Assembly: GCF_004010195.1 (NCBI RefSeq)
Contig: NC_057759.1
Location: forward strand, 838,112-902,111
Direction of reading: 5' to 3'
Length of the DNA stretch: 64,000 nucleotides
From: Chiloscyllium plagiosum
Lineage: Eukaryota
Notes under the pieces: generated by a model
Told to the model about the DNA's origin: nothing
The model's database searches: none
Seen by the model: only the letters and a program-made list of their open reading frames with translations
Made by a program: the position numbers and the translations under genes
Shown here: positions 19,770-44,371 of the stretch, piece after piece
How positions within the stretch are numbered: position 1 is the first letter of the stretch
Layout: every line of letters begins with the position of its first letter

Positions 19770-19780
19770 TTTATTTTATT
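19770..19780 (-). terminator. Candidate polyadenylation signal (two overlapping AATAAA) of the receptor gene
   Basis: Minus strand reads AATAAAATAAA about 475 nt downstream of the stop codon. Confidence 0.55.
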
Positions 19781-20255: not shown

Positions 20256-20393
20256 TTATGTTTTCACGTCCATGTAAACGCAGGGCTCCTCCCTGACGAC
20301 TGAGGCTGATTCATTTTTATTTATACGATCCATGTTCAAGACTGCATAAGTAACTCCTTCACATTTCTTGTCATTCACATCGGAATACTCGCC
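20256..20393 (-). CDS. Ig-like receptor terminal exon 9 with ITIM and ITSM-like motif (GEYSDVNDKKCEGVTYAVLNMDRINKNESASVVREEPCVYMDVKT*)
   Basis: Acceptor gctgaatgcAG, phase 0; 138 nt to TAA. VTYAVL matches ITIM consensus V/I/L/S-x-Y-x-x-L/V; CVYMDV resembles ITSM T-x-Y-x-x-V. Confidence 0.9.
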   Translation of the reverse strand, partial: GEYSDVNDKKCEGVTYAVLNMDRINKNESASVVREEPCVYMDVKT

Positions 20394-21416
20394 CTGCATT
20401 CAGCAAACATGTAAAGTGGTGTTTGTAAAGTATACACTGATATCTTGCACTTCTGTTACTCTCGAAAGTTTTTTTAAATTTGTTCATCTATTACAACCTA
20501 TTGCTTCCTGTCAATCCCTTTCACACCAACCCTACACACTGTTCTTTATTTTTGTCTTTTCAGTCTCTCAATTTGCATGAGAATTCCAGAAGGTATTGTC
20601 AGTAAGATTGCGGATTAGGGCTATTTGTGAAGAAGGTTATCTAAGTGTACAATGGTATCTCGGTTAGATGGGATAATGGGCCAAGGAATGGCAGATGGAG
20701 TTTAATTTGGATAAATACAAGTTATTGAATTTTTCTAAGGTATTCCAGGGTAGGACTTACACAGTTACTTACACCAATCAGAGAAACTTCGGGGTGCAGG
20801 TACGTGGTTCCTGTAACTTACCTCGCTGGTATATAGGGAGGTGAAGGTGTTGTTTAGTACAATTGCCTTCATTTGCCAGAGTATAGGAATTAGGACATCA
20901 TGTTGTGTCTGCACAAGATATTGATGAGGTCATTTTTAGAACAATGTGTATAATGTTGGTCGCCCTGTGATAGGAAAGATGTTATTACATTAGAAAGGGT
21001 ACAGAAAAAACGAAATCCAAGAATGTTACCTGGATTAGAGGGAGACGCTGGATAGGCTGGGACATTTTTCCCTGGAGCGTCGGAGACTGAGGGGTAACCT
21101 TACAGAGTTTTGTCAAATCATAAGGGACGCAGTAAAGTAAAATAAACAAGGTCTTCCCCCCAGAACTGGGGAGTCCAAACCCAGAGATCGTAGGTTTAAG
21201 GTCAGATGGGAATTATGTAAAAGGGAGCTAATGGGGGTTTATATATGGAATGAATTGTCAGAGGAAGTGGTAGAGGTGGGTACAATGACAAAGTTTGAAA
21301 GACATTTAGACAGTTACATGAATAGGAATGCTTTAGAGTGATATGGGTCAAATACAGGCCAATTGAAGTAGTTCGGCTTAAGAAACCTCATAGGCATGGA
21401 CAGGTTGGGCAATCAA

Positions 21417-23140
21417 GGATAGTAGTGGGAAGTTGTGTGTGGAGTCAAAGAAGATAGGGGAAGCACTAAATGAATAATTTTCGGCAGTGTTCACTCTAGA
21501 AAACGATTCTAGAAAAGGAGAATGCTGAGGTACAGGCTACTAGACTAGGTGGGATTGAGGTTCACAAGGAAGAGGTGTTAGAAATCCTGCAGAGTGTGAA
21601 AATAGATAAGCCCCCTGGGCCGGATGGAATTTATCCTAGGATCCTCTGGGAAGCCAGGGAGGAGATTGACGAGCCTTTGACATTGAAATTTAACTCGTCA
21701 TTGTCGACAGAAATAGTGCCAGAAGACAGGAGGATAGCAAATGTGATTCCCCTGTTAAAGAAGGGGAGTAGAGACAACTCTGGTAATTATAGACCAGTGA
21801 GCCTTACTTCAGTTGTTGAAAAAGTGTTAGAAAAGTTTATAAGAGATAGGATTTATAGTCGTCTAGAAAATAATAATTTGATTAGGGATAGTCAGCACGG
21901 TTTTCTGTCGGGTATGTCGTGCCTCACAAACCTTATTGAGTTCTTTGAGAAGGTGACCAAACAGGTAGATGAGTGTAAACCGGTTGATGTGTTGTATATG
22001 GAATTCAGTAAGGCATTTGATAAGGTTCCCCACAGTCGGCTATTGTACAAAATGCGGATAGTGGGAGATATGGCAGTTTGGATCAATAATTGGCTTGCTG
22101 AAAAAAGACAGAGGGTGGTGGTTGATGGGAAATGTTCATCCTGGAGTCCAGTTACTAGTGGTGTACCGCAATGGTCTGTGTTGGATCCACTGTTGCTCGT
22201 CATTTTTATAAACGACCTGGATGCGGGCGTAGAAGGGTGGGTTAGTAAATTTGCAGACAAGGTCGGTGGAGTTGTGGATAATGACGAAAGATGTTGTAGG
22301 TTACAGAGAGACACAGATGACCTGCAGTGCTGGGCTGCGAGGTGGCAAATGGAACTTAATGTGGATAAGTGTGAGGTGATTCACTTTGATCAGAGTTACC
22401 GGAATGCAAAGTACTGGGCGAATGGTAGGATTCTTGGTAGTGTAGATGAGCAGAGAGATCTCGGTGTCCAGGTACACAGGTCCTTGAAAGTTGCCACCCA
22501 GGTTGACAGGGTTGTTAAGAAGGCATATAGTATTTTAGCTTTTATTAATAGAGGAATCGAGTTCCGGAACCATGAGGTTATGCTAAAGCTGTACAAAACT
22601 CTGGTGCGGCCACACTTGGATTATTTTGTACAGTTCTGGTCACCACATTATAAGAAGGATGTGGAAGCTTTGGAAAGGGTTCAGAGGAGATTTACTAGGA
22701 TGTTGCCTGGTATGGAAGGAATGTCTTACGAGAAAAGGTTGAGGGACATAAGGCTGTATTCGTTGGAGAGAAGATGGTTAAGAGGTGACTTAATAAAGAC
22801 ATATAAGATAATCAGAGGGTTAGATAGGGGCAGGGGCAACCTTTTTCCAATATGGTGACGGCGAGCACGAGGGGGCATAGCTTTAAATTGAATGGTGATA
22901 GATATAGGACAGATGTCAGAGGTACTTTCTTTACTCCGAGAGTGGTAAGGGTATGGAATGCTTTGCCTGCAACAGTAGTAGATTCGCCAACTTTAAGTGC
23001 ATTTAAGTCATCATTGCACAAGCATATGGACTTACATGGAATAATGTAGGTTATATGGGCTTCAGACTGGTATGACTGGTTGGCGCAACATCGAGGGCCA
23101 AAGGGCCTGTACTGCGCTGTATTGTTCTATGTTCTATGTT
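21417..23140 (+). mobile_element. CR1/HER1-type LINE, 5'-truncated, with near-intact RT ORF (21575-22858)
   Basis: 427-aa ORF with CR1 RT motifs (PGPDGIYPRIL, GNYRPVSLTSV, SKAFDKVPH, GVPQ, KFAD, LERVQRRFTRML); 3' tail (TTCTATG)n at ~23120-23140. Confidence 0.95.
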
Positions 23141-23449
23141 CCATGCTGTGCAACTCTATTATTGTCGCTTTTCAATGTGCTTCCTATGTTTATCTCTACC
23201 TCCATATTTCATTGCCGTACCCCTCAATCTCACCACCACTTGCCAAATTATCCCTCGATTTTGTGTTGATTTTCTGCATTCCTCTCCATCTCTCTCTCTC
23301 TGTTAATCAATCTAGACTTGTCCTAAACATCCTCAAACTCCAAGTATATTTTTCATTCCAGGACGCTCTCTCGACTGGAGAATTTAATCTGACTTTGCGT
23401 AGCAACAAAGCAAAACTGATTTGAGTTTGATTAATAATTGTGTGCTTAC

Positions 23450-23484
23450 CGTGGGGTTGTAATAGATCAAATTGGCGTTGCCAC
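23450..23484 (-). CDS. Ig-like receptor exon 8: cytoplasmic (CGNANLIYYNPT)
   Basis: Acceptor ttcctttatcacAG, donor ACG|GTAAGC; 35 nt, phase 1 to 0, bridging exon 7 and the terminal exon. Confidence 0.8.
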
Positions 23485-23645
23485 CTGTGATAAAGGAAGC
23501 ACAGAAGTTGAGTTTTTCTCTGCCTGTTTTAGAAGTGATACTCTGAGTTCATGTTGTCAACTGTTTGTGTGTTCTAATTCCTGATGCCATTTAAATATAG
23601 GCCCAAAATATTTTTTTTTTCATTGTAGCCCCAACCTTGCATTGC

Positions 23646-23708
23646 AGAGACAGAGAGAGAGAGAGACAGAGAGAGCGAGAGAGAGAGAGAGAGAGACAGA
23701 GAGAGAAA
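23646..23708. repeat. (GA)n microsatellite
   Basis: Direct reading. Confidence 0.9.
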
Positions 23709-23999
23709 GACCTCTTGTTGCTCAACCAAACGGTCACCTCACCTCAGAGGATGGAAACGTTGAGATGGATAGTTCTCAGCTAGCGTTAAAATTGAATACA
23801 CATTATTGGTGGCACTCACCAGTCATAAGAGCGAATTTCCTTTGCATAGCCTTTAGTCTATTAAATGATGGCAAATAATATTTATTGGATCTATAAGCTC
23901 TCAACCAGGGTAATTCCTGGGATGGCGGTATTGTCTTATGAATTAAAAATATTCCGACCCTACTCACTGGAGTTTAGAAGAATTGAGGCCATCTCATTA

Positions 24000-24315
24000 G
24001 ATTAGATTACCTCCAGTGTGAAACAGGCCCCTCGGCCGAACATGTCCACACCGACCCTCTGAAGCGCAACCCACCAAGACCCATTTACGTACATTCACCC
24101 TGACTAATGCACCTAACGCTACAGGCAATTTAGCATGGCCAATTCACCTAACCTGCACATCTTTGGACTCTGGGAGGAAACCAGAGCACCCAGGGGAAAC
24201 CCACACTGACACGGGGAGAATATACAAACTCCACACAGACAGTTGCCCAAGGCTGGAATCGAACCTGGGCCCCTGGCGCTATAAGGCAACAGTGCTAACC
24301 ACTGATCAACCGTGC
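24000..24315 (-). mobile_element. HE1-type SINE
   Basis: Reverse tRNA-like head; attagattagatt tail. Confidence 0.75.
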
Positions 24316-25468
24316 TGCTGGGGAGCAGTGTATGCTGGGAGAGTGTTTCCCCCTCATTGAAGCATCTCGGAACAAAAGGCACAGTCTCAGAATCAAGGGG
24401 TGTCATTGGATGTCTGAGATGAGCAAGATTGTCTTCTCTTGGACGTTTTAGTGTCTTTGGAACTTTTTAATACAGAGAAATGTGTGGGTTGGCAGAGTCC
24501 TTGTGTATATTTAAGGCTGAGACAGATACATAATTAATTAATAAGTGAATCAAGGGTTACAGGGAAAGTGGATGTGAGGGATGTCGGATCAGCCATGATT
24601 CTATTGAATGGTGGAGCAGGCTCGAGGAGCTGAAAAGCCAACTACTGTTGCCCATTCTTATGCTCCTATGATCCGATGGAATGTTCCCAATCCCACGGTT
24701 CCTAATAAATTCTGAACATGTTCTGTAAGTTGCTTCTTTGCCCTGTCGGTGCAAACCAGAGTCCAGATGGAGACTGAAAAACAACATAACTTGGATAGTC
24801 TTTCTTCATCCTTCACACAGAGGAAAGCATACCACACACTACTCATTCCAGTGCACTGGGTATTTTCTACGAGATGATTCCTTTCTCCAATGCCCTTACA
24901 CGATATTGGAAAATCAGGCTGTAGGAATGGATTGCAGCTCTATCATTGAGATTTCTGATTTATTTTGAGGACAGAATAGAACAAGGGTGAATGTAAACAC
25001 AACTGTATCACCTCAAATGCTTGTTTCAACGTGATGTGTTTAACTTCACGTGACGTGAGTCTCCAACATGATGTACACAGTGCCCAAATGCTTGTGTTTT
25101 ATCTGCCAGTCCTTTAGCTAGCTTTTCTCTGTAAGTGACATTGGACTCGAAAAATGAATGCTGTCGCTGTCTCTCCACAGATGCTGCTAGACCCACTGAA
25201 TTTCTCATGCACTGTCTAGAGTTGTTTACTTTAGCTGTTTGACCTTAGAAGTATCCATGACATCAGAATTCGGATTATTTCAATTTTTGTTTCTGATGCT
25301 GTGGCGCTGCGTTAACAGAGAGTAAACAATCATAGAGTGATCAGGAATGAAGTTTAAAATGTCTCCACTGAAACTATTTACACATTTATCACCTTAATAA
25401 TCAGAAAGAAAGATGTTTTATTTATAGCGATCATTACAACTAATCATGAGCATCAGTGATATACTTAC

Positions 25469-25521
25469 AAATGCCATCATGGTTTTTACTGTGTCTATTT
25501 TGAACTGTTGAGGTTGAAGTC
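25469..25521 (-). CDS. Ig-like receptor exon 7: cytoplasmic (TSTSTVQNRHSKNHDGI)
   Basis: Acceptor tctttattttccAG, donor GTAAGT; 53 nt, phase 2 to 1; 170-nt intron separates it from exon 6. Confidence 0.8.
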
Positions 25522-25691
25522 CTGGAAAATAAAGACATATGCTGGCTCAAATGTGCTCCCGATGTAATGGGAATTGATGGCACAAGAATAATTAAGGAAT
25601 AAATACGAGATCTATAGATGTATTAATGCACATCTATGTATGTTGCATAAAGTCAAGTATCAGAAAAATACAAGTCGTTTAACATTCTCAC

Positions 25692-25719
25692 CTCTGAACA
25701 TTTCGATGTTTATTTCGAC
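25692..25719 (-). CDS. Ig-like receptor exon 6: basic juxtamembrane (GRNKHRNVQR)
   Basis: Strong acceptor ttgttttttatccctcAG, donor GAG|GTGAGA; 28 nt, phase 1 to 2. Confidence 0.8.
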
Positions 25720-26694
25720 CTGAGGGATAAAAAACAACAATGCATTGTGAAATACCTCAAACATGTTGGCCAATGTCAATAATATAACACAAAGGCCTGC
25801 AGGGTGTTGAATATCCGTGTCAAAAATCAGAGAATGTTAAAGAAATACAGCAACTATGACACTATCTATATACTCAGAACAAAACGGAATCGAAAGCTCA
25901 AAGGGGAGTTGGGAGTCCGGGTTCAGGATTGTCTTCAGGTGAACAGGGAGGTTCAGTTGGCAATTAGGATGGAAAATGTTATGTTAGCATTCATTGCTAG
26001 ATGGTTGGAATACAAGAGGCTGTATATGTGCTGCTGAGGCTGTATATGGCTCTGGTCAGATCTCATATGGAATGTTGAGAGCAGTTTTAAACACTGTATG
26101 TGTGGGAGGATTTACTGAGCTTGGAAGGAGTCCAGAGAAGATTCACAAGAAAGATCCCATGGATGAAGGGCTTGTCATGTGAGAAATGGTTAAAGAGTGG
26201 ACATGGAAAAGATGTTTCCAGGAGTAGTAGAGACAAGGAACCGAGAGCACATGCTTAGAGTAAGGAGATGACCTTGGAGGAATTTCTTCAAAAATGGGAT
26301 GTTGAATCTGTGGAACTGATTGCCACAAAGGGCTGTGGAGGCCACGACATTGGCTTCCTTGAGAACAGAATCAGATAGCTTCTTGAGTGGGAAAGGTGAT
26401 CCAGGGTTTCAAGTAGAAGGCAGGGGAATCGGTTTGAGAAACGTATCAGTCATGATCAAATGATAGAACAAACTCAATGGACTGAAGGCTCTAATTCTGC
26501 TCCTGTGTCGTAAGGTCTTGTAGTGTGTTCAAGGTGCTTGCCAGTCATGGCTGAGAGGATGATCCTCCCTCATGCAAGAGTGTAGGATCAAAGGGTATCG
26601 TCTCAGAATAAAGGGACACCAGTTGAAGACTGAGATGAGGAAGGATTCCCTCTGTCAGAAGGTTGAGAGTTTTCAGAACTCCATGTCACAGAGT

Positions 26695-26862
26695 TTCTCT
26701 CTCTGTCTCTCTCCCTCTGTATGCCTGTGTGTGTGTCTGTGTGTCTGTGTGCTGTGTGTATCTCTCACTCTGTATGTGTGTGTTTGTCTGTGCATGTGTC
26801 TGTCTATGTGTGTGTGTTTCTGTGCGTGTGTCTGTGTGTTTATGCATGTGTCAGAGTGTGTC
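26695..26862. repeat. Compound (CT)n/(TG)n microsatellite
   Basis: Direct reading; produces spurious CV-rich ORFs. Confidence 0.85.
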
Positions 26863-29805
26863 CACAATCCTTGTGCATATTGAAGGCTGAGATAGATTCT
26901 TCATCAGCTGGGAAATGAAGGGTTACAGGCAGGAAAATGGAAGTGAGGACTGAGGGATCACCCATGCTGGAGATGAGAGTCAAGATTAGAGTGGTGCTGG
27001 AAAAGCACAGCAGGTCAGGCAGCATCCGAGGAGTAGGAAAATCGATGTTTCGGGCAACAGCTGTTCATCATAGGATCGGCCATGGTTCTATGGGTGGAAC
27101 AGGCTCCGGGACCCTAATACTATACTCCTTTTCTTATTTCTTATAGTGTTATGGACTTGAAATGTTAACTCTGCTTCTGTCTCTCTCACTCCATAGATCC
27201 TGCCAGATCTGCTGAATTTCTCCAGTGACTTCTGTTTCACTGAACTATTTTCCAAACCCAGCATCGAATTCGGTAATTTGAAAATCTAAATGATACCTCC
27301 CAAAACGAAAGGTTTAATAAAGCTATGAATATGTCCACTTCAAACGTACAAAACGCAGAACAAAAGCGATGCAATCACGTTTTCCCTGTTACAAGTTAGA
27401 AGCCCTGCAGAGGAGATAGAGTTCATTGACGGTGAATCTACACTGACCCTTCAAAGAGCATCCGATCCGCATCCTATACCTGTAACCACACATTTCCGAT
27501 GACTAATCCACCTAGACCACACACCATCCCTGCACAGTTTAGCATGACCAATCCACCTACTCATCTGTACCGAGTTGTAATGACTAGATGATTAGCCAGT
27601 CAATGAGCCATCTTCTAAAAGAGGCTTCCAGAAGAGTGTCTCACAGTGAATGTGGTGAAATTACTGTATGGAACAGACTGTTTGATGAAAATGTTCTTAG
27701 TTACAGATGATAAAGGCCAAACGCCATATAACTGCCTCTGGTCTATATCCCCTTCAGAGCTTTACTCAACAAATATTTCTCTGTCTCCCATTTGAAACTG
27801 GCAACTGATGCAGCATCCATTGCCGTTTTGTACTACGTTGTGGGTCTACATGGAAGGAAAAGAATCGCAGCTGGACATCTCCTGTGAATACATTAATGAC
27901 CCAAGCGGCTGGACAAACCACATGGGTCGTTCTTTTTCACCCTTAATTTGTTTATATTTCTGTACACAGAATGCTTACTGTGAGGCCTTCACTGAAACAT
28001 AGCGAGGGGTTAGTGTGTTGACAGGGTTACTGGGACACTACCCCAGAACTGACAGCAACATGCCACGTGGCTCCATCTGCCATCTCTTGCGATGCATTCC
28101 AAGTTCTAGAGCTAGAATCGGAATCTAGTGATGGAATTCTCCTCAGTTGTGGTTGAAAGCTGATTCCTAATTTATTTTAATTCATTCGTGGGATGTGGGC
28201 ATCTCTCTCCAGGCCAGCAGTTATTATCTCTGCTTTTAGGGGCCTCTTCTCTCAAAGTGAATTAACTCTTCTGAGGTTTCAGAAAAATAACTTCTTGGAC
28301 TCCTACCTGAACACATCGGCTAATGATTTTCCTCAGGTCTACCTTTCTGTTTCTAATACAAACACTATTCACATCAGGGTTTTAAAGACCCCATTTCAAT
28401 GAGTTTGAACAGAACAAATCTATATATATTCCAGTGTCATTTTCACTGAATCACCTAAAACGAAATTTAAAATAAAACTGTCTTGGTCCTCTGAACAGAG
28501 AAAACTAAAACTATTCGAGTCACACAGCAATACAGCAGGGAAACAAACACTTAAGTCCAACTTGTCCATACCGACCAAAATTCCCTAACTAAGCTAGTCA
28601 TATTTACCTGCGTTTGCTGCATATCTCTCTAAATCTTTCTGATCCATGTACCTGCCCAAACGTCTCTTAAATTTTGTAATTGCACTCGCCTCTACAACGT
28701 CTCCTGGCAGCTCGTTCTATATATATATACACCACCCACTCTGTGAAAAAGTTGCTTCTCAAGTGCCTTTTAAATCTTTTCTCTCTCACCTTAAATTTAT
28801 GCACGTCTGGTTTTGGTCGCCGTTACCTTGGAAAAAGACCTTGGCTGTTCATCGTATCAATGCCTCACATGATTTTGTAAATCTTTTTAAGATGACCCTT
28901 CAGCCTCTGACACTCTGGGGTAATAACTCACAGTCTATACAGCCTTTTGTTGTAAGTCAAACCCTCCAGTCCCAGCGACATTCTTGTCTAGGCAGCACGG
29001 TGGTTCATTTGCTTCCTCCCACAATCCAAAGATGTGCAGAACAAGTGAATTGGACAAGCTAAATTGCCCATAGTTTTCGAGGATGTATAGATTAGGTGCA
29101 TTAGTCAGGGGTAAATGTCGAGTAATAGGGTAGCGAAATGAGTTTGAGTGGGATACTCTTCAGAGAGTCGATATGGACTTGTTGGGGCAAAGCGCCTATT
29201 TCTATAGTGTGGGGATTTAATGAAACTATGCCACTGAATCTTTTTTTTCACCTTTTCCAGTTAAACCATATCGTTCCTATAGCTGGGCGATCTCACCAAT
29301 ATCCTGCACAACCTCAACTTGACATCCCAACTCCTATTCTGACTGCTCTGACGGATGAAGGTAAGTGTGCCAAATGCCTTTTCCACTAACATGTCTACCT
29401 GTGACGCTACTTTCAAGGGACTATGCACCTGCACCCCTAGAGCCTTCTGGTCAACAATATTCCCCAGAGCCCTATTGAACCCTTATTTTAAAATAATATC
29501 AATACATCATTGAATTTGATCACATCTATCTATCTAAATTGTCATAGTGAAAGAAATTACTGGAACAGGAAAAGACCCATCAGTCTGTGCTGGTTTAAAA
29601 GTATTCTAATGCCATTTCATCAGCACTTGGCCTAGATTCTTGGCATCGCAATTGCACATCTAAGCACGTTTCTCCCACCCTTAGAGGAGTGAGTTCTACA
29701 TTCCTCATTATAATCTGGTTTAATCCTGGTAAATCGTCTCCACACCCTCTCCCACTGCTGTCAAATCCCTCCTAACCAGATGCATTACACATTTTAACGA
29801 GTTAC

Positions 29806-29901
29806 CTTTCTTGATAAGTATAAGGCACGGCACCACAAATAAAATAATGATCACGGCAGCACATCCCAGTCCGATGTACAGATATAATTCTGGCTTGGTG
29901 C
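29806..29901 (-). CDS. Ig-like receptor exon 5: transmembrane (GTKPELYLYIGLGCAAVIIILFVVPCLILIKK)
   Basis: Acceptor gcattgcatAG, donor AAG|GTAACT; 96 nt, phase 1-1; uncharged hydrophobic segment ending in KK stop-transfer. Confidence 0.9.
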
Positions 29902-31447: not shown

Positions 31448-31482
31448 TTCCTGATGAAGAGCTTTTGCCCGAAACGTCGATT
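31448..31482 (+). ncRNA. Minimal hammerhead ribozyme-like core
   Basis: CTGATGA-agagc tttt gccc-GAAA-CGTC; palindromic ACGT; stem II has one mismatch. Confidence 0.5.
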
Positions 31483-31674
31483 TTACTGCTCCTCTGATGC
31501 TGACTGAACTGCTATGCCCTTCCAGCACCTCTAATCCAGAATCTGGTTTCCAGCATCTGCAGTCATTGTTTTTACGTTTACTATGAAAGTTGTGTTGTCC
31601 CAGTCGAAGTGGTGACCTTCTTCGTGTGTATGTCAGGATGCTAGTGATAGTTCATCAAGTATTTTGATGGCTGG

Positions 31675-34150: not shown

Positions 34151-34839
34151 AAATCCCTGAACGCTATGGGCAATTTTCCTGGAATGACACTGTGTGGAAG
34201 CAGTGTTAACCACTGAGCAACTTTGGTCATTGTTTTCAAAAACTGCTGTTGCATTTTGGATGGTGTGAGACCCCAGATCCGCCTGTGGGCCGCACCAAGA
34301 TGGGATTCTACACAGTTTCACATCACGCCTCACGTAGGCACTGCGGGCGTGCAGGTGGGTTTTATGGGAGCGGGGTGTGTATGTGCAGTCCGGTCGCTTG
34401 CCTCTGATAGGGAATGGGCCGAAAAGAAAAATAATAATAAACGTTTCATTAGCATGTTTGTTTTGAAGGGGTGCTTCATAGGAGAGAAAGACGTAATCCA
34501 CACAGCTCTCTGTTTCAATGAATGTGCAAATAAATGTGATTTGCATTCCTCGATGTCTGGCATTCAAGCCAGATCTCCATTAATAAACACATCGATTTGG
34601 ACCCCATCTGCCAACCTCTGGAAGAAAGAACTGGAAATGATATTACCTGCATTAACAGTCCAAGATACGTAAGTAGAAAGCGAAACAGAACACCAGCATA
34701 TCACCGGACGCTCATTGATATTACCTAGCATGGTGATGTAACATGTGAAAACAAATCTGCTAACTCAGCAAGCAAACTTACAATCTGAACATCAACCTGA
34801 GCGACAAATCTTCTCAAAAATCGCAACATATGTAATTAC

Positions 34840-35172
34840 CTTTTGATGGGCGATCCATCTTTCGTTTCTCTGTGACTGAAACTGACTGACTGGACCGGGA
34901 AAAGATGGCAGCTCCATTAACCACTGTTTCATATTGACAACTGTAATTTCCTGCAGAAGTATGTTCAAATGCATTGATGGTAAAGTCCGCAGTATCTTCA
35001 AGACTAGTCACTTCAAGGCGATACTGTCTGGAACCTTCCCCCCAATTGTTGTACAAGTAGAATGTCCCTCCACTGCGCCGAATCTCACCTTTACAGGAAA
35101 TCACGACATTGCCCCTATTTGAATTATCTCTGGAATCTTGCAGCACTTTAATGATTGGTTTGGAGAGTTGAT
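34840..35172 (-). CDS. Ig-like receptor exon 4: Ig domain 2, LRC/LILR/A1BG-like C2 type, plus short stalk
   Basis: Acceptor aaatcaacAG, donor AAG|GTAATT; 333 nt, phase 1-1. DQLSKPII...VVISC...GTFYLY...ADFTI...AGNYSCQY...SRSSQSVSVT; Cys pair separated by 51 residues. Confidence 0.9.
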
Positions 35173-35329
35173 CTGTTGATTTGTAAAATAAAGACTTTTA
35201 CAAATACATTTTTGCATCCTTTTTAGAGCAAAGCACTTGAAAGGGGAAAGGTGTAGACGAAAGCCACTGCAATATCACAACATAATCAGTTATCCTTGCT
35301 CATTGCGAGACAACGATCAAAGATGCAGA

Positions 35330-37500
35330 ACGCTCCATCCAGCCAATATTTTGTTGAACGACAGCATAATTCCGTGCTCCTCTTCCGAGCTTGCAAGCAG
35401 AAATTGAAGTGACTGTATCCCGTACAGAAAGCAGTGTTGCTTTCAGGCAAGGAAAAGGCTTCTATGGGACAGTTTACATTTGCTGGACTGGTCCGTATTC
35501 AAGAACTCAGCGGCCAACCTAAGCAAGTATGACACTAATGTTATAGAGCCGAAAATGTGTTGCTGGAAAAGCGCAACAGGTGAGGCAGCATCCAAGGAGC
35601 AGGAGCATGTTATAATGTTTTAGAATAATGTTATAGGCTTCCCCAGTGCACGTGTACAAGATTATGTGTTAAGATGTTAATCTAAGTGTTCCCCAACGGG
35701 AATCAATGGATGAAGTGGAAAGTTCACTCCCGACTGCAAGTCGGAGGCTTCCAACTCAGATAGCCCTGTCCTATACAGGAAAATCAGGTACCAGCTCTGT
35801 AAGGCCTTCAGGGATGCTAAGAGGAAACACCAAGCTCAGCATGAGACCAAGACCAACCACCCAGATGTCTGTCCTTTGTGGCAAGGCCTACACAACATAA
35901 AGGGAAATTGAACATGTTCATAGTCATCACTGTGTCCCTATGTGACGAGCTCAATGCATTCTGTGCTTGCTTTGAGCAGAAGGTCAGTGAATCGATGTAA
36001 TCTATAACAACAGTGTCGGATGCATCTGTACCCACGGCCATTGCCACAGATGTTCGATCAGCCTGCTTCAGAGTGACCCCACAGAAAGCGACTAGTCAGG
36101 TTGGAGTCTGCGACCATGCACTCAGATCCTGTATGGACCAGCTGAAGGGAGTACTCACAGACGTCTTTAAACTCTTCTTACTATGGTGTGATATTCTCAG
36201 CTGCTTCAAGTAGACCACCAACATGCTGGTATCAAAGGAAAATCACGCAATGTGCCTCAATGACTAACGCCTGTTGGTTGTGACCAATATAATTATCCAT
36301 TATCTTCGAGAGGTTCGTCATGACTCACACCCACTCCAGGCTATCAATTACTTTGATCCTTTACAGTTCACCTACTGGCGCAACATTTCTACTGCCAACA
36401 TCACCTCCCTTGCCCTACACTCATCCCTGGAACATTTGGATAAGAAGGACGTCTATGCCAGGCTCCTACTTACTGACTACAGATCACTTTCAAAATCATA
36501 ATTCCAAACAAACTGGTATGGATGCTCAAACGTAAGAATGTGCAACAACATCTCCGTCATCGTAATCCTCAAGAACAGTGCCCCACAAGGCTGTGTACTC
36601 AGCACCTACTATACTTTCCGATAAAATCATGACGGCGTGGCCACATTCCACCCCAAATCCATTTACAGGTGTGCTAACAACACCACTGTTGTAGGGTGGA
36701 TTTCAAACAACAAGAAGGCAAAATAAACGAGAAAGACTATGCGCTTAGCGGTGTTGTGCAAAAATGACAATCTCTCCATCAACATCAGCAAAACGACAGA
36801 GTTGAGCATTCACTTCAGTAAGTAGAGTTGAGAGAACTGCTCTGTTTCCCTCAATGGTACTGAGGTGGAGATGGTCAACCGTCTCAATTTGCTGGGAGGG
36901 ATGGTCACCAGCAAGCTGTTCTGATCCACTCATGTTGATGCAATGGTCAAGAAACAGAAATTAATCTCAAATTCCTCAGGATGCTAAGGAAATTCGGCAT
37001 GTCCGCAAGCACTCTTAACAGTTTTTAAACGTGCACCATAGAAAGCATCCTATTTGAATGCATCACAGTGTTGTATGGCAACTGCGCAAGAACTTACAGA
37101 GAATCGTGAATAGAGACTAGTCCATCTCACAAATCTACTTTCCATCCTTTGACTCCATTTAAACTTCCCTCTGTCTCTGGGAAATGACCAACACAGCCAA
37201 AGACCCCGCCCACTCCAGTTCTACTCTCTTCAATTGGACAGAAGATACGGAAGTTTGAATGCACGCATCATCAGATTAAAGAATAGCTTCTTCCCAGCTG
37301 TTATCAGATTTCTGACTAGACCTCTCAAATATTAATATTCATCTCTCTGTCTCGTTATGCACTTTCTCCATAGCCATGACACTCTATTCTACGCTCTGTT
37401 CTGCTGCTATGATGCACTTTGCATGTTAAGTTCTGACTGTAGAGCATGCAAAACATCATTTTCACTGTATCTTGGTACATGTGGCAACAATAAATCAAAC
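35330..37500 (+). mobile_element. Rex1/Babar-type LINE (degenerate) filling intron 3
   Basis: DPLQFTY, LEHLDKKDVYARLLLTDY remnants; 3' end caataaatcaaac at ~37487-37500. Confidence 0.75.
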
Positions 37501-37541
37501 AAATAACAAAGAAAAGGGGAGAAGTCTATTTAATGACATAC

Positions 37542-37838
37542 CACTGACGTTTATCTGAATGGGGTCAGTGAATCCTGATCTTCTCCATGTTCCATTCGCC
37601 AATGCGAATAAACATTCACACTTGAAAGTTGATTCACCTCTCGTTAGGAATTTTAATTGTAAAGATGTATCACATTGTCCTTCAGGAAGATTTATTTCAC
37701 TGCACTCGAGATCGTGACTGTAGCAACAGTGTGTCCTTGTGACTGGACATTGACAGCTACACTTCACCAATGTCGTCTCTCCTTCCAAAAACACCTCATA
37801 TGATGGATTCAGAGACACGACTGGCTTCGGGATACCAT
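37542..37838 (-). CDS. Ig-like receptor exon 3: Ig domain 1, cysteine-rich (DGIPKPVVSLNP...KCSCQC...HCCY...FKCEC...DPIQINVS)
   Basis: Acceptor ccgttcctcAG, donor G|GTATGT; 297 nt, phase 1-1. PKP start, GETTLVKC B strand, FKC F strand and PIQINVS G strand are typical of C2-type Ig domains. Confidence 0.85.
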
Positions 37839-38700
37839 CTGAGGAACGGAATTGAAGCATTTTATCAGCAGAAAAGTGTTAACCACAATACTGGAAACTG
37901 TTATAATAAGGTGACTTCTTGGACACCTAAGTCCATAAAGATCCCACACTCATGGAAATTGCCTGGGATGGTTGACTTCTTAAAAGGTATATCTGTGTGA
38001 AATTAATTGAAGGTGTTTGGGAACACTTGCCTTTGTTAAGAGATCAGAATCTAAGACCAGGGAGGTAATGTCAGTTAGGTCACACAGCGAGCGACAGTTC
38101 CGGAATCAACATTCCAGGACAGACGCTATAGCATTGGGAAACGATGTGGAGGGAGATTAACCGAGATGTTCCTTCAGGGCTGGGGAGTTTCAGTGATGGA
38201 GAGAGATTGGACAGACTGAGTTGATTTCCTTGGAGCAGAAGAGAGTGGGTTGGGGGGGGGTGTATGACTGAGATGTATAAAATGAGGGCTAGAGATAGGA
38301 TAGACAGGAAGAAACTTTCCCCTTGATGAAGGGAACAATGTGCAGGGTGGGGAGTGGTCGTGAGAGGAAGGGGGTGCACAGATCCAAGATAAGGGAGCGA
38401 AGGAATGTGATGAAAACCTTATTCATCCCGAGCTGGACCAGTATCGGGAACTGACTTCCTGTAAAGGTCGAAGACGCAAAAACCCACATCACATTGAAGA
38501 AATGTTTAGATTTGCACTTAAGACTCCAAGGCTATGGGGCCAAGGGCCAGGGAAATGGAATTACAAAATAGTGAGTTAGCTGTTTTTCACTTGAGCAGAT
38601 AGAGTGTATTAAAGAGCCTTCGGTTGTGCTGTAGATTTCGAGGATGTTTTAAAAGATTCGAATGGCCATAATAATTTTATGAAGTTTCAAACAACATAAC

Positions 38701-38763
38701 CTGGGAATGCAACGATAGTTGTGTTGAACATTGCAGTTCCCACGCTGTTAGCTATGGAAGCTG
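38701..38763 (-). CDS. Ig-like receptor exon 2 (signal peptide part 2 / N-terminus, AASIANSVGTAMFNTTIVAFP)
   Basis: Acceptor tatttcacAG (NAGNAG CAGCAG), donor CAG|GTTATG; 63 nt, phase 1-1, open and in frame with exons 1 and 3. Confidence 0.65.
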
Positions 38764-39302
38764 CTGTGAAATATAGCTAGCAAATCTGTGGAACTTCATG
38801 ACCGACACAAAAAAGAGAGAAATGAGAAGAATTACTTTCAAAATGATGTCTATAAAGCTGTACACAAATTTTAGCACTACACTTGATAAGCTGGTTCTGA
38901 TTGGTGATCTGACAATCAAGTGGAAAAGCATTAACGAGGTATTTTTTATGTTAATGAATCAATGCGTTATAATTTCACATACTCACATATCTCATGCATT
39001 TCGATCAGCACGTGAAAATGAACTAATTGGAAACAATCAAAGAATTGCTGTGTATTAATATTTTCAACTTGACAAATCTCGAGACAGACATATATGCAAA
39101 TTTCTGCAATGAGACATTTGGATGGTGGAGATCTGAAAACGAAGTGTTTTTTTTGCAAGATAGTGGAAAGAGATATAAATTGGTGTAATGCCCGTTAAAG
39201 ATACTTCAGGTTGAGTTTAAACAGGCATTCCTTCAGACAGTTTGGATAACATGTTACTTTGAATGACTTGGACACATAATTTCATGAAGTGTTTATAAAT
39301 AA

Positions 39303-39514
39303 TGATTTGGAGATGCCGGTGTTGGACTGGGGTGTACAAAGTTAAAAATCACACAACATCAAGTTATAGTCCAACAGGTTTAATTGGAAGCACACTAACT
39401 TTCAGAGCGTCGCTCCTTCATCAGGTGACGTGATGAAGGAGCGACGCTCCGAAAGTTAGTGTACTTTCAATTAAACCTGTTGCACTATAACCTGGTGTTG
39501 TGTGATTTTTAACT
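39303..39514. mobile_element. Short palindromic Penelope-derived element
   Basis: Inverted arms centred ~39427; TSD-like tttataaat; same family as 779-1016. Confidence 0.75.
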
Positions 39515-42500
39515 TTATAAATCATGTTAGTGAACAGTGTATGGAGCTTCCTCATTAGCACTCCCCCAGGACAATCTGCATTAAGAAGGAATAGACAACA
39601 AAGAAAGGGTCCTGGGCGAGCTCACAAATAACAAAACCACCAATACATTAGCATGAGGAACTGTGATTGAAGTAAAAAGATGTCGAATCGTTTTGAGTCC
39701 AGCTATTAAACGGCAAGGGGGCCTCAGTAATTGCTGTGAATTATTCTTAGAACACAAACTTGTAATAAATATTTTGGCGATGTTTTAATCATAATGCATT
39801 TAATATGGATAGAGTCACAGGGGCACAGTCACACAGTACAGAAATAGACCTTGATGTCCAACTCGCCCTGACATCCCAATCTGACCTCGCCGCATTTGCC
39901 AGCATTTGACCCATATCCCTCTAAACGCTTCCTGTTCACCTACCTATCGGGTGCCTTTTAAATATTGTTATTGGACCTTCCTGCATCACCTCCTTTGGCA
40001 GCTCACTCCATACACATAGCATTCTCTGCATGAAAATATTACCCCTCAAGTCCTTTATAAATATTTTTCTCTCTTGCCTTAATTTATTCTCTCTACTTAT
40101 CGATTCCCTATCCCCAGGATAAATAACTTGGTTATTCATGCTATTCATGCCCTTTGTGATTTTATAAACTCCTATAAGAACAACTCTCAGCCTCGCACAC
40201 TGCAAGGAAAGAAAGCCTCACCCTATTAATCTTCTGCCTATAACTCAAAACGTCCTGTCCTGTTATGACATATTTTTCATTCCAAAAGTTGGAAATCTTG
40301 TCTGCCCCATTCAAGTTTAACAAAACGTTTCCTATAGAAGGGTGACTAGAATTGTACTCAGTATTCTAAGAATGGCCTCAACAAAGTGCTATGCAGCAGC
40401 AACATGACATACCAAATCCTAAACTCAATGTTGTGACCAATGAAGAAAGCATGCCAAAGGGTTTCTCCACCACCCTGTCGACCTGCAACTCCACGTTAAA
40501 GGAATTGTGCACCTGCTCGCGAGTTCTCTTGTCTAAAATAAATAAAGGGACTGCTATCCTCTCTGTTAAACACATCATTTCTTATCCTCCTTGACACATG
40601 TGGGGACAGCCATTCTCTGTAATACACCTGTTTAACCGTCAAGGAAAATGATTTAGAATCATTCCAGTGGAAATGGTGCAGAAAGTCCCAAAAGGCGCCA
40701 AAGGAATTTCAGAGATGTTGTGACAAATAAACAGGATTAGTAAAGCGATAGTTGAGACAAAAATATTGGAGACGACCTTTCTCTATAATACACACAGCGA
40801 CTGCTCTTCAGTAATAAATTAATAATGAGCAATTAAACATTTTATGTGGAGAATCAACGATCAAATCAGCATTAATAGAGAGAGTGTGTACAAGATGTTG
40901 TCCTGAGCTAGTGCGTTGAGGTACCAATCAGGCATTGGACCAGGTAAGAAGTAATATTTTAGAGTTAACTAATATCTATTCTTTAAATATGCCAATGGGA
41001 AGTAGTGGTCATGACATCGTAGAATTTTGGGAAGTAGCGAATATAACATATTACAGAATTTTATTTCAAGTTTGAATGTGACATCATTCATCTTAAAGAT
41101 GAACAAAGGAAATATGGATATCCAAGGGGTACGTCGTCAGGAGTAAATTTTGTCAATAGGCGATGGGGAGCTTTACAAATAAACACTTAGGTTCGACAAC
41201 AGATGCATATTCCTTGAAAGTATAAAGATCCAAACGGAATGGTGCACCTATGAAGGTTCACAAAAGATACCTAAATTTCCTCAATTGAAAACCTACAAAT
41301 TGTAACACTGCCAGAAGCAACGGGAGGCCTGAAGATTGTGAGTAATTGAGGACCTAGCATAAGTATACCACGAAATTATTGATTAAAGGAAATCAATACA
41401 AATTCAAGCAAGTGATGAATAAAAAATGGATAATAAAGGTTTTAATGATACAGTGAAAGGAAAATAAATTGGACAACATAAATGTGGAACCATCATAAAT
41501 AAGGGTAGTAAATTTACATTAGCTAACAGGAAAGTGCAGCTAACAGATTTGCAGAAGATCATTGAACCATAGAAAACTGGCCTGTCGACGCTCCAGCCTC
41601 TTCCAACATTCAATAGGAAAATGCCTGATCCGACATTCCTCAAATTCACTTTCCCACCCTCTCCCCGATGGCACTGGATTCCATTATGAACCAAAACTAT
41701 GTCCCTCTCAGCCTTAAACATACAAATGTACTTTGCCTCCATCCACAGCACTTTACAGCAAGGAGTCCTAAGACTCACGAATCTCTGAGAGAAGACACTC
41801 CTCCTCATCTCAGTCTTCCATTGGTGCTACTTTATTCTAACGCTATGCCGTCTTGTCCTAGACTCGGCCGTGAGGGGAAACATCTTCTCAGCATTGACCC
41901 CATCAAGCCGCTGAGGAATCCTACCTGTTTCAATGAGATCACCCCTCATTCTTTTGAACTCTAGTGAGGAGTGTGCCAACTTGTTTACCCCGCAAGGAAA
42001 ATGATCCAGCAAATCATTCAGGTGAAAATGATAAAGAAAAATGTACAAGGTGCCAAAGAAATTTCAGAGAGGTTGTGACAAATAAAAAGTGCTAGTTGAT
42101 ATCAAAATATTGAGAGTGAGGATTGATAAATATCTTTAACTGATTGAAAACAAACGACCAAAAAAGTAGCCACATTGTTGGCTACCTTTTGTAAATCTGT
42201 AGATTCTGAAACTGGTTATGCTGACTCAAAGATTTTTAACATAAAACCTTACATAGCAAGGAAAAGGGGTTAATGGAGATCTTTGTTAACTTGATGACCA
42301 GAAATAGAGAATATAATAGGAAGAATCTGGTAACAGAGTGGAGCAAACTGATAAAATTGGATAGAGCCAACATTGTTGTGTCAATAGAACATAGAACATT
42401 ACAGCACAGGACACGCCCTTCAGCCCTCAGATATTCTACCAATCTGTGAAATCAATCTGAAGACCTACACTCTAACCTACCCTATTCCATTCTCGTCCAT

Positions 42501-44340
42501 ATACCTATCAAATGAACACTTAAATGTCCCTAAATTGGAATCATGCGTAAGAAAACTGATAGAGCATTTTCAGCGTATTCCTTGCAACATCTGTAAATAA
42601 GAAAGAGAACTGAATCAGTTCTCAGAAGGCTTTTCATAAGATCCTGTAAACAAAAATAAATACACCTCATGAATTGAATAGTATGGTCTGGGAATTGCTA
42701 AGTTTAGACAAAGCAATAAGGAGGAATGAATGAGTCATTCTTCGGAGGCAAGCTTTTTCACGGGGCATCACAACCATGAGACATCACGAGTGCAGAGATC
42801 CGTGAAGTTGTCAGCACAGGCAGCTAGGGTGGTGAAGAAGGCATACAGCCGACAGCATGGGTGTAGAATATAGGAGCAAGAAAATCTTGTTGCATGTTTA
42901 CAGACTATGGGTTCGAACACAGATGGAATATTGTGTGCAGTTCTGATTGTCAAACTATCCTCAGGACGTGATAGCACTGGAAAGGGTGCAGAGGAGATTC
43001 ATTAGTATGTTGTCTGGGATGGACATTTTCAGTTTTTGAGGAGAGATTGGAAAAGCAGAGTTTGTCTTCTCTGGGGCAGAAGAGGTTGGGTTGAGGGGGA
43101 ATGTGGGTGGGGGGTGGGGTGAACTGATAGAAGTGTACAAAATAAGGAGGCATGAACAGACGAGATTTCTAGAATGCTATCCTCATGGCAGACCTGTCTC
43201 AGACCAGAGTGCATAAGCTTAAGGTGAGGAATAAGTGCCGTGAGGGGATCAGGAAGAGATTTTTTTCCTCCCAGACGGTGGTAGAAATATGGACTGTGCT
43301 GGTTGAGAGGATGCTGGAGGCAGATACTATCACGACATTTAATCAGTCTCTGGCCAAGCACTTCAAATCGCAGGGCATTTGTGATATAGACCAAGTGAAA
43401 GAAAATGGGATCATTTGTTGGTCAGAATAGACATGAAGCGCGAAAGGGTGTGTATCTATGCTGTATGACTACATGACTCTGACTGTGATAAGGATCAGGC
43501 CCACAGCTCGATCACTTTTGCAATGATTTGGATAACGAAACGAGTGATAATAATTCTAACGTTGTAGAAGAAGTTGGCCATTCAGCCCTGAGAGCCTGTT
43601 CCATATTTCATAGGATCATGCCTGATCCAACACGCCTAAAGTGATATTGCTGTAAATTCAGGAATGTGAATACTCAGAAAAGTCTTCAATTCTTTTACCA
43701 TCACCTCATATCTTTTTCCCTCCAACAAATATTCCAACACTCACTCCAATTCTGCCCCTCAATTTGAGTCAGTTTATCTTTCCATTGACCACAGATTAGC
43801 ATGCATTTTCCTTTTGCTTATCAATTAATTTCTCCGATCAAATTTACACAACCTGCATCACTTCAACGTAATCTACCCCTCTGCATAAAAAAAACAAATC
43901 AACACTAGTTTGCCAAAACTGAACTTCATCTATCAGCTAGAGGTTCATCGGGTTTATAAAGATATTTCTCACATCTTCCTGTATATAATTGAATTTGGTC
44001 TTGTCCACTATACACTCAGTCACGATTACAAATCTATTTCTGCACCCCTTTTCATATTCTATTGTTTTACAGTAGTCAAAAATGATGAATACATGTTTTC
44101 TTTTCTTTCATCTCTATAAGTTTTTACGAGCTCTGTTAGAATTTAAGAAGATAAGATCGATCAACGGATTAAACATTGCAATGTTACACTTTAAAACTGT
44201 AATAGTAGAAGGTGTTTATTAAAAAGTTAAAGTCAGCTGAACTCTTTTGACAAACTCTCACAGCTGACCAGTTTCTGATTTATACAAAGCAACGCATTAC
44301 TGAGAGTTATCATCGAGAAATTAAAGGACCTGATACTCAC

Positions 44341-44371
44341 CAATTGACAGAAGGATTGAAAAAACAAACAT
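44341..44371 (-). CDS. Ig-like inhibitory receptor, coding exon 1 (signal peptide part 1, MFVFSILLSI)
   Basis: ATG TTT GTT TTT TCA ATC CTT CTG TCA ATT G followed by consensus donor GTGAGT; 31 nt, phase 1; hydrophobic leader. Confidence 0.8.

What the first reader, a model, noticed from the sequence alone, without database searches (positions are those of the whole stretch)
20256..44371. Complete 9-exon ITIM-bearing two-Ig-domain receptor in repeat-rich DNA: candidate LRC/LILR-like inhibitory immune receptor of a cartilaginous fish
Seen: nine minus-strand GT-AG exons (31, 63, 297, 333, 96, 28, 53, 35, 138 nt) chain in compatible phases to a stop-free 357-aa protein with leader, two Ig domains, TM and a Tyr-motif tail. 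The ORF track shows only fragments of it. Knowledge: a leader split over two exons, phase-1 Ig exons, a C2 domain with PKP/FxLY/GxYSCxY/SxxSxxV motifs and small cytoplasmic exons ending in an ITIM exon resemble mammalian LRC genes (LILR, KIR, LAIR, A1BG/IGSF1), chicken CHIR and teleost LITR. They do not resemble the V-type MDIR, NITR or CD300 families. Inference: a probably uncharacterised elasmobranch inhibitory receptor family, relevant to how early LRC-like receptors arose.
Basis: partly seen in the sequence, partly recalled or inferred. Interest (0 to 1): 0.85.

Follow-up and report, generated by a model that had tools for sequence, protein, structure and literature searches.

The report
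Shark inhibitory paired immune receptor gene
This is a real, intact shark gene for a cell-surface 'brake' receptor built like the human LILR/KIR/OSCAR immune receptors, one member of a shark-wide family that also has activating-type twins, which points to such paired receptors being older than bony fish.

Summary
The nine-exon minus-strand gene is real, but exon 2 was misread. The true exon 2 is a 36-nt mini-exon at 39022-38987, not the 63-nt piece. The corrected 348-aa protein is 71% identical (247/348) to a RefSeq epaulette-shark model across all exons, and an intact paralogue has the same exon plan.

Both Ig domains fold like LRC receptors (top fold rows 50/50 and 49/50 LRC-encoded; best two-domain match OSCAR). 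D1 carries unusual extra cysteines. The tail has one canonical ITIM and one degenerate motif.

The gene is one of 2 intact among 9 close copies on an 8-Mb contig. Relatives occur in four shark orders. Sawshark has an inhibitory and an Arg-TM activating form with 186/199 identical ectodomains, so this is a paired-receptor family.

LRC membership by locus is not shown. Synteny was inconclusive, the tree gives shark-only clades, and FCRL-type exons lie about 120 kb away. No junction reads were obtained.

RefSeq already auto-names some relatives LILRB3-, TARM1- or OSCAR-like, and I recall a 2021 report of one LRC-like elephant-shark gene. Ten literature searches found no description of this family; the scan had not noted it elsewhere.

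The parts
44341..44371 (-). Exon 1 (31 coding nt): ATG and first half of the signal peptide; phase-1 donor GTGAGT
   Evidence: conserved in paralogues
38987..39022 (-).
37542..37838 (-). Exon 3: D1, LRC-type C2 Ig domain with 9 Cys (family signature CxCxC ... C ... CxC)
34840..35172 (-). Exon 4: D2, LRC-type C2 Ig domain (2 Cys, one N-glycan sequon) plus short stalk
29806..29901 (-). Exon 5: uncharged transmembrane helix (inhibitory type)
   Evidence: hydropathy peak 3.1; matches P0023 and P0015
25692..25719 (-). Exon 6 (28 nt): basic juxtamembrane cytoplasmic segment
25469..25521 (-). Exon 7 (53 nt): cytoplasmic
23450..23484 (-). Exon 8 (35 nt): cytoplasmic, with a Tyr-Tyr pair
20256..20393 (-). 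Exon 9 (138 nt to the stop): YxxV motif, ITIM, distal Tyr motif, TAA
20337..20354 (-). Canonical ITIM (VTYAVL), Tyr319 of the corrected protein
   Evidence: family counterpart (I/V/L)TYAxL in most long-tailed relatives
20265..20282 (-). Distal Tyr motif (CVYMDV), degenerate; SxYA(D/E)V-type in several other sharks, 24 residues after the ITIM Tyr
19775..19780 (-). First AATAAA downstream of the stop, candidate poly(A) signal (inferred)

Best explanation
An intact gene for the inhibitory member of a shark-wide family of paired two-Ig-domain receptors of the LRC type (LILR/KIR/OSCAR/CHIR-like). SHOWN: gene structure, LRC-type fold, uncharged TM, one canonical ITIM, a birth-and-death cluster, and short-tailed sister forms with a second TM type. 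INFERRED from established LRC biology: the receptor sits on leukocytes; ligand binding by D1-D2 clusters it; a Src-family kinase phosphorylates the ITIM Tyr; SHP-1/SHP-2 bind through SH2 domains and damp activating signals. The short-tailed twins (Arg-TM in sawshark, white shark and horn shark) would signal through an FcR-gamma/zeta-type adaptor. The degenerate distal motif suggests weaker or single-SH2 engagement than in two-ITIM relatives. The extra D1 cysteines probably form two additional family-wide disulfides (positions 28-75 and 30-55 of D1), possibly a third (38-45), leaving one free Cys in this gene. The ligand is a guess: MHC class I-like about 0.3, collagen-like as for OSCAR/LAIR1 about 0.25, Ig Fc about 0.15, other or pathogen about 0.3.
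For: Corrected model is 247/348 identical and colinear with XP_060712772.1; an intact paralogue has the same exon plan. Fold: for the two-domain model of the close homologue (pLDDT 71), 50 of the 50 best VIA rows are LRC-encoded, with OSCAR best (Z 13.8, rmsd 4.2, 177 aligned; Foldseek E 6.8e-11). For the window's own D1 (pLDDT 91.5), 49 of 50 rows are LRC-encoded (Z 12.2-13.5). Family profile against PDB: PirB 3.7e-28, LILRB2 3.6e-19, KIR3DL1 2.8e-16. Atlas neighbours: KIR3DX1, IGSF1-like, A1BG. Pairing: sawshark P0047 (two ITIMs) and P0049 (Arg-TM, short tail) share 186/199 ectodomain residues; this genome has four short-tail TM exons. Crude dN/dS against the intact paralogue is 0.53 (D1), 0.61 (D2) and 0.33 (last exon). 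D1 Cys30 and Cys55 are both present in 22 of 25 distinct D1 rows, both lost in 2, discordant in 1. The genome has one zeta/FcR-gamma-family TM exon.
Against: FCRL5 ties PirB in the whole-sequence PDB search (8.2e-28, a multi-domain sum), and the D1-only profile lists FCRL5, CHIR-AB1 and FcR chains. No LRC framework gene was found on this contig: CNOT3 is on C39 with no LRC-type Ig exon in the roughly 200 kb sampled around it, and TTYH1, PRPF31, TSEN34 and an intact RPS9 were not found at all. Shark D1 and D2 form their own clades and are not nested in tetrapod LRC. The activating TMs lack the Asn of NxxR, and the bamboo-shark short-tail forms lack the Arg itself (His, Gln or Asn). The four tetrapod NxxR TMs rank 2, 6, 22 and 55 of 100 against the shark TM set. 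7 of 9 close copies on the contig are broken. Expression, signalling and ligand are untested.
Confidence: 0.68

Rival explanations
1. An inhibitory paired receptor that works as described but is not an LRC orthologue: a shark-specific expansion from the common ancestor of the LRC and FCRL families, on a chromosome that collects multigene families.
For: Shark-only D1 (100/99) and D2 (97/74) clades. No framework synteny. FCRL-type exons about 120 kb away. The contig also carries histones, 7TM receptor genes and zinc fingers. Guselnikov 2008 argues for common FcR/KIR roots and a shared TM module (passages).
Against: Fold searches pick LRC chains over FcR chains for both domains. Exon 2 is 36 nt, not the FCRL-type 21 nt (for the 30/21 rule). 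Four of five framework genes were simply not found, so the synteny test is weak.
Confidence: 0.19
2. An FCRL/LITR-type receptor for immunoglobulin Fc, i.e. an inhibitory shark Fc receptor.
For: The D1 profile's best PDB rows are FCRL5, CHIR-AB1 (an IgY receptor), FceRI-alpha and FcgRIII. FCRL-type exons lie nearby. A 1988 paper titled 'Fc receptor for shark IgM' exists (reference list only).
Against: The FcR hits of D1 are weak (E about 0.06-1) and mostly cover only the first 30-60 positions. Structure favours LRC. The 21-nt mini-exon is absent. True FCRL-type exons on the same contig are clearly different (outgroup).
Confidence: 0.07
3. A silent or decaying copy that happens to keep an open frame, like its broken neighbours.
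For: 7 of 9 close copies on the contig carry stops, frameshifts or lost cysteines. The distal ITIM is degenerate and D1 has an odd number of cysteines. No junction reads were obtained.
Against: All nine exons and 16 splice sites are intact over 24 kb of DNA that is at least 45% interspersed repeat. dN/dS is below 1. Close relatives are full-length RefSeq models in two other hemiscylliid sharks.
Confidence: 0.06

Closest known systems
Mammalian LRC receptors: OSCAR, LILRB/PirB, KIR2DL, LAIR1, NKp46, GPVI (with IGSF1/A1BG/TARM1 as defined by Guselnikov & Taranin 2019, PMC6557307, passages seen)
   Same: C2-type LRC fold of both domains; the two-domain arrangement is closest to OSCAR (rmsd 4-5 against 8-13 for other two-domain alignments); split leader; phase-1 Ig exons; ITIM in the last exon; paired short-tail forms with Arg near the TM start and an acidic residue at its end.
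   Different: Only about 10-25% identity. D1 has 6 family-wide Cys (9 here) instead of 2. No NxxR/DYT consensus. No one-to-one orthologue in the tree. Not shown to lie in the LRC framework region. OSCAR itself is activating.
Chicken CHIR cluster (Laun et al. 2006, PMC1458963, passages seen)
   Same: Two-Ig paired receptors on a small chromosome with many pseudogenes (41 of 103 loci there; 7 of 9 close copies here). CHIR-AB1 is the best single-domain PDB sequence match of the D1 profile (19.7 bits).
   Different: CHIR-B has seven exons against nine here; far fewer copies; CHIR-AB1 has two Cys in the aligned domain.
RefSeq/UniRef shark models: H. ocellatum XP_060712772.1, C. punctatum XP_072422935.1, sawshark 'TARM1-like' and 'OSCAR', a 'LILRB3' model (P0047), basking shark 'IGSF1-like', S. 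canicula, S. torazame, M. asterias and C. carcharias 'uncharacterized'
   Same: Same family; the first is the nearest protein found (71%).
   Different: Automatic names only; I found no paper treating them as a family.
FCRL/FcR family, Xenopus XFL and teleost LITR (Guselnikov 2008, PMC2413239, passages seen)
   Same: C2 Ig domains, paired signalling, Arg-type TM in XFL, weak D1 sequence likeness.
   Different: Those follow a 30/21-nt leader rule; here 31/36. The fold prefers LRC. LITR sequences were not in hand.
LRC-like gene of elephant shark in Wang, Belosevic & Stafford 2021 (PMID 33410929)
   Same: Recalled, not read: it reports one LRC-like and two FCRL-like genes in a chimaera, so LRC-like genes in cartilaginous fish are not wholly new. 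Only the citation was seen.
   Different: As I recall, a single gene rather than an elasmobranch paired family; whether it belongs to this family is untested.

Membership tests
LRC-type Ig-like receptors | Ig domains match LRC proteins better than other IgSF families (criterion of PMC6557307) | tested here: met
   Fold: 50/50 and 49/50 best rows are LRC. Sequence: D2 best immune hits OSCAR and PirB. Caveat: FCRL5 ties on the summed score and leads the D1-only profile.
LRC-type Ig-like receptors | Leader split over two exons with a mini-exon of about 36 nt; phase-1 Ig exons | tested here: met
   31 + 36 nt, all ectodomain introns phase 1. That 36 nt is the LRC size is recalled; one search found no citable source.
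LRC-type Ig-like receptors | Inhibitory forms: uncharged TM and ITIM(s) | tested here: met
   One canonical and one degenerate motif; two ITIM-type motifs in several relatives
LRC-type Ig-like receptors | Activating forms with the NxxR TM (DYT at the start, acidic end) pairing with FcR-gamma | tested here: inconclusive
   Arg in 4 of 7 shark short-tail TMs used and an acidic end in 6 of 7, but no Asn; Arg absent in this genome's copies; tetrapod NxxR TMs rank 2, 6, 22, 55 of 100
LRC-type Ig-like receptors | Linkage to framework genes TTYH1/LENG8 and RPS9/TSEN34/CNOT3/PRPF31 | tested here: inconclusive
   CNOT3 on C39, not C50; one CDC42EP-family gene on C39, none on C50; TTYH1, PRPF31, TSEN34 and intact RPS9 not found anywhere, so the assembly or the search is incomplete
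LRC-type Ig-like receptors | Phylogenetic grouping with tetrapod LRC domains | tested here: inconclusive
   92 domains, 100 columns: family D2 sits in an unstarred 82/84 group with tetrapod LRC-like, teleost and other shark domains; deep forks are open
LRC-type Ig-like receptors | Leukocyte expression | not tested
   No reads could be laid; no RNA holder on record
LRC-type Ig-like receptors | SHP-1/2 recruitment; ligand (MHC-I, collagen, Fc) | not testable with these tools
   Needs bench work
FcR/FCRL/XFL | 30/21-nt leader exons (PMC2413239) | tested here: not met
   31/36 nt here and in the intact paralogue
FcR/FCRL/XFL | FCRL domain subtypes | tested here: inconclusive
   Weak, mostly N-terminal likeness of D1; FcR chains rank below LRC in Foldseek
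MDIR/NITR/CD300/TREM (V-type receptors) | N-terminal V-set domain | tested here: not met
   No V-set Pfam hit at E<=1; canonical Cys spacing 47 and 52 residues, in the C2 range by general knowledge
Teleost LITR | FcR-like D1D2 plus linkage to vangl2/arhgef11/slam (recalled) | not tested
   No LITR sequence was in hand

The most novel reading that the evidence does not exclude
Sharks carry a full LRC-type paired-receptor system that is their missing-self or NK/myeloid checkpoint family. Its small chromosome, where LRC-type and FCRL-type genes lie about 120 kb apart, is a relic of the single ancestral complex from which the LRC and the Fc-receptor complex arose.
Probability: 0.2. Interest if true: 0.85.

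Novelty: new variant of a known kind. Interest (0 to 1): 0.57.

Why it matters
Akula et al. 2014 (PMC4016189, passages) found no C2-only LRC homologues in sharks and dated these receptors to bony fish. Guselnikov & Taranin 2019 (passages) call the origin of the LRC still unclear, and a 2026 IgSF survey classes the KIR/LILR cluster as mammal-specific (PMC13262535, passages).

A paired family with LRC folds, present in both galeomorph and squalomorph sharks, would put the inhibitory/activating LRC design at the root of jawed vertebrates. It would also give concrete candidate receptors for shark NK or myeloid self-recognition, with a cysteine-rich D1 variant unlike the matched solved structures. 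The corrected exon 2 is needed for cloning or primer design.

Tried and rejected
It could still be a rare cassette exon, since it is phase 1-1 and open, but no fetched protein contains it (best score 31, in an unrelated protein, among the proteins held).

RNA evidence: one search listed 23 runs with no RNA holder on record, which is no evidence either way. No reads were laid, so the junctions rest on homology only.

An activating-type TM exon inside the window: none found (tblastn). The 5.8-billion-protein search could not be made; homologues come from one profile search (589 hits at E<=0.001, best 150 seen, names looked up for 30).

Framework genes: searches for Tweety, PRPF31, TSEN, CDC42EP and RPS9 gave nothing on C50. 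About 0.6 Mb of the 8.08-Mb contig was looked at (window, fetched stretches and search loci), so its gene content is largely unseen. Whether RefSeq already models this exact gene was not checked. No complex prediction was run, because no candidate ligand sequence was in hand.

Tree: rows were chosen from D2-profile hits (biased towards LRC-like sequences); long proteins were cut to their first 3-8 domains; broken paralogues were left out, except two FCRL-type exons used as outgroup; no bona fide FcR, LITR, MDIR, KIR or LILR sequence was included; the bootstrap had not fully settled.

Literature searches found no description of the family. Term look-ups in PMC4701786, PMC8137979, PMC11426453, PMC6795676 and PMC3964593 found nothing relevant. 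Wang 2021 and Guselnikov 2010 are not held. No supplements were read; the elephant-shark genome supplement may bear on novelty.
Full report
OBSERVATION. The window is G000:C50:838112-902111; C50 is an 8.08-Mb contig. They chain stop-free to 357 aa with all introns GT-AG. A profile search with five D2 exons against 1.84 billion representatives gave 589 hits at E<=0.001. Among the best 150 was P0023 (H. ocellatum XP_060712772.1), which matches exons 3-9 junction for junction but has a different leader. Scanning the interval between exons 1 and 3 with homologue leader peptides found a 36-nt exon at 39022-38987, scoring 48 against 13 for the next of 60 candidates. The corrected 348-aa protein is 247/348 identical to P0023 with no leader gap. 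In six paralogues the 36-nt exon is 75-86% identical. The 63-nt piece is 56-76% identical, no better than the intron around it, and lacks its acceptor in three. An intact paralogue at C50:3.72 Mb has exons of 31/36/291/330/96/28/53/35/138 nt. So the gene is real and exon 2 must be replaced. No reads were laid, so splicing is supported by homology to predicted models, not by RNA seen here.

ORGANISM. The Ig domains of a paralogue on contig C98545 are letter-identical to a RefSeq protein of Chiloscyllium plagiosum, so the genome is most likely that bamboo shark.

ANATOMY. The protein has a signal peptide on two exons, D1, D2, a short stalk, an uncharged TM and a tail of about 85 residues. D2 gives weak Ig hits in Pfam and D1 gives none. 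In PDB, D2's best immune matches are OSCAR and PirB (titin scores similarly by summing repeats). The 23-sequence family profile gives PirB 3.7e-28, FCRL5 8.2e-28, LILRB2 3.6e-19, LILRB1 4.1e-17 and KIR3DL1 2.8e-16, with classical FcRs at 1e-8 or weaker. The D1-only profile is more ambiguous: FCRL5 by summed domains, CHIR-AB1 as best single domain, then weak FcR hits. Atlas neighbours of both domains include KIR3DX1, IGSF1-like and A1BG clusters, with FCRL2 at rank 7 for D1.

STRUCTURE. The AlphaFold model of the window's D1 is confident (pLDDT 91.5). It matches KIR2DS2, NKp46, LILRB4 and LAIR1, with 49 of the 50 best VIA rows LRC-encoded and one PECAM-1 (the Z values are tied within about 1). 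The model of P0023 (pLDDT 71, pTM 0.53) matches OSCAR best: Z 13.8, rmsd 4.2 over 177 residues, against rmsd 8-13 for the other two-domain alignments; all 50 rows are LRC-encoded. The hinge angle of a prediction is uncertain, so the OSCAR likeness is only a hint at a collagen-type ligand. D1 has six family-wide cysteines (26, 28, 30, 55, 73, 75) in 25 distinct rows. Positions 30 and 55 are both present in 22 rows, both lost in 2 and discordant in 1, from which I infer extra disulfides. Hemiscylliid copies add 38 and 45, and this gene adds a ninth. The tail holds one canonical ITIM and a degenerate distal motif 24 residues later; several relatives in other sharks keep both.

FAMILY IN THIS GENOME. 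The D2 search gave 17 matches, nine of them close copies on C50. Two are intact (this gene and 3.72 Mb). Seven carry stops, frameshifts or lost cysteines; assembly error cannot be excluded for single lesions. Three of the broken C50 copies and the gene on C98545 have a different, 111-nt-type TM exon (one interrupted by an insertion), followed by a short tail where seen. A single-domain relative lies on C12. More distant LRC-type Ig exons lie on C50 at 6.9-7.7 Mb, on C47, C38, C12 and unplaced contigs. Crude dN/dS against the intact paralogue is 0.53, 0.61 and 0.33 for D1, D2 and the last exon (few sites).

FAMILY IN OTHER SHARKS. Named relatives come from Hemiscyllium, Chiloscyllium, Rhincodon, Stegostoma, Scyliorhinus, Mustelus, Cetorhinus, Carcharodon and Pristiophorus, i.e. 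four orders on both sides of the galeomorph/squalomorph split (classification from general knowledge). A two-ITIM form named 'LILRB3' (P0047, organism cut off in the listing) and an Arg-TM form ('TARM1-like', in a cluster with sawshark members) share 186 of 199 ectodomain residues, the hallmark of paired receptors. The shark short-tail TM has Arg, or His/Gln/Asn in some, near its start and usually an acidic residue at its end. Guselnikov & Taranin list both features for the LRC TM, but the Asn of NxxR is absent. A similarity ranking puts the four tetrapod NxxR TMs at 2, 6, 22 and 55 of 100: suggestive, not decisive. One zeta/FcR-gamma-family TM exon exists on C12; it looks CD247-like by recall.

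TREE AND SYNTENY. In a 92-domain tree, family D1 (13 rows, 100/99) and D2 (14 rows, 97/74) each form shark-only groups. The window's domains are nearest to P0023 and the 3.72-Mb paralogue, and deep forks are open. No one-to-one orthologue appears among the tetrapod and teleost rows, and nesting in the LRC is not shown. CNOT3 lies on C39, among a CCDC96/113-like, an EF-hand and a RING gene, with no LRC-type Ig exon in about 200 kb. TTYH1, PRPF31, TSEN34 and intact RPS9 were not found. Sampling of C50 showed histones, 7TM genes, zinc fingers and, about 120 kb from this gene, FCRL-type exons (best PDB FCRL5 1.9e-15, then FcgRI), apparently broken. Synteny is therefore inconclusive.

MECHANISM. 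Most likely an inhibitory leukocyte receptor: ligand engagement, Src-family phosphorylation of the ITIM, SHP-1/2 recruitment, and damping of signals from activating receptors that include its own short-tailed twins. The anatomy is shown; every signalling step is inferred from LILRB/KIR/LAIR biology (established knowledge). The ligand is unknown.

COMPARISON AND NOVELTY. It works like LILRB, KIR2DL, LAIR1 or CHIR-B. As to membership, it meets the domain, exon and ITIM criteria for an LRC-type receptor, fails the FCRL leader rule (30/21 nt) and the V-domain criterion, and is untested or inconclusive for synteny, tree and activating TM. Akula 2014 reported no such genes in sharks. Against novelty, databases already give LRC-style automatic names to relatives, and Wang et al. 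2021 (citation seen, text not held) reported, as I recall, one LRC-like gene in elephant shark. Ten searches of an open-access library found no account of a shark paired family; subscription journals are not covered.

PAPERS SEEN. Passages: PMC4016189, PMC6557307, PMC2413239, PMC13262535, PMC1458963, PMC6182393. Reference-list entries: PMC10247546, PMC6795676. Term look-ups without relevant text: PMC4701786, PMC8137979, PMC11426453, PMC3964593. No supplements were read.

VERDICT. A real gene with one exon corrected; a new variant of a known kind; interest 0.57.

Noticed in passing
L121:2912-7328 (G000:C50 about 1.003-1.007 Mb, minus): At least three FCRL/FcgRI-type Ig exons about 120 kb from the finding; they look broken (Cys replaced by Trp, a stop). 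No further such exons in the 30 kb fetched around them.
   Followed up: partly
L078, L082, L084, L092: Short-tail TM exons of the family in this genome have His, Gln or Asn where other sharks have Arg; the one at C50:2.85 Mb is interrupted by a repeat insertion. Activating function may be altered or lost in bamboo sharks.
   Followed up: partly
proteins P0001-P0009, P0034: Many top D2-profile hits (28 of 150 by a rough motif count) are very long receptors mixing SRCR and LRC-type Ig domains in sharks, rays and a teleost, auto-named DMBT1- or CD163-like; possibly another under-described branch of LRC-type receptors.
   Followed up: no
G000:C50 6.9-7.7 Mb; C47 6.0-8.9 Mb; C38 0.20-0.25 Mb; C12 2.8-2.9 Mb: Further clusters of more distant LRC-type Ig exons.
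   Followed up: no
window 54713-54784 and 40978-41091 (minus): Weak matches (E about 0.004) to the odd N-terminus of a C. punctatum isoform (P0151), the first over an 18-bp tandem repeat; possibly alternative 5' exons or mis-predicted sequence.
   Followed up: no
window 60167-60542 (plus): Broken C2H2 zinc-finger fragment (Pfam zf-C2H2).
   Followed up: partly
window 21500-22858 (plus), in intron 8: 452-codon open frame of a LINE reverse transcriptase (identified by recalled motifs); at least 45% of the window is interspersed repeat.
   Followed up: no
L116 (G000:C9 about 41.2 Mb): Frameshifted intronless RPS9-like copy (processed pseudogene, identity recalled), while the parent RPS9 gene was not found by the search.
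   Followed up: partly
L118, L127, L131, L083, L122: C50 also carries histone H2A/H2B genes and single-exon rhodopsin-type 7TM genes; its sampled stretches are 29-92% repeated sequence.
   Followed up: partly
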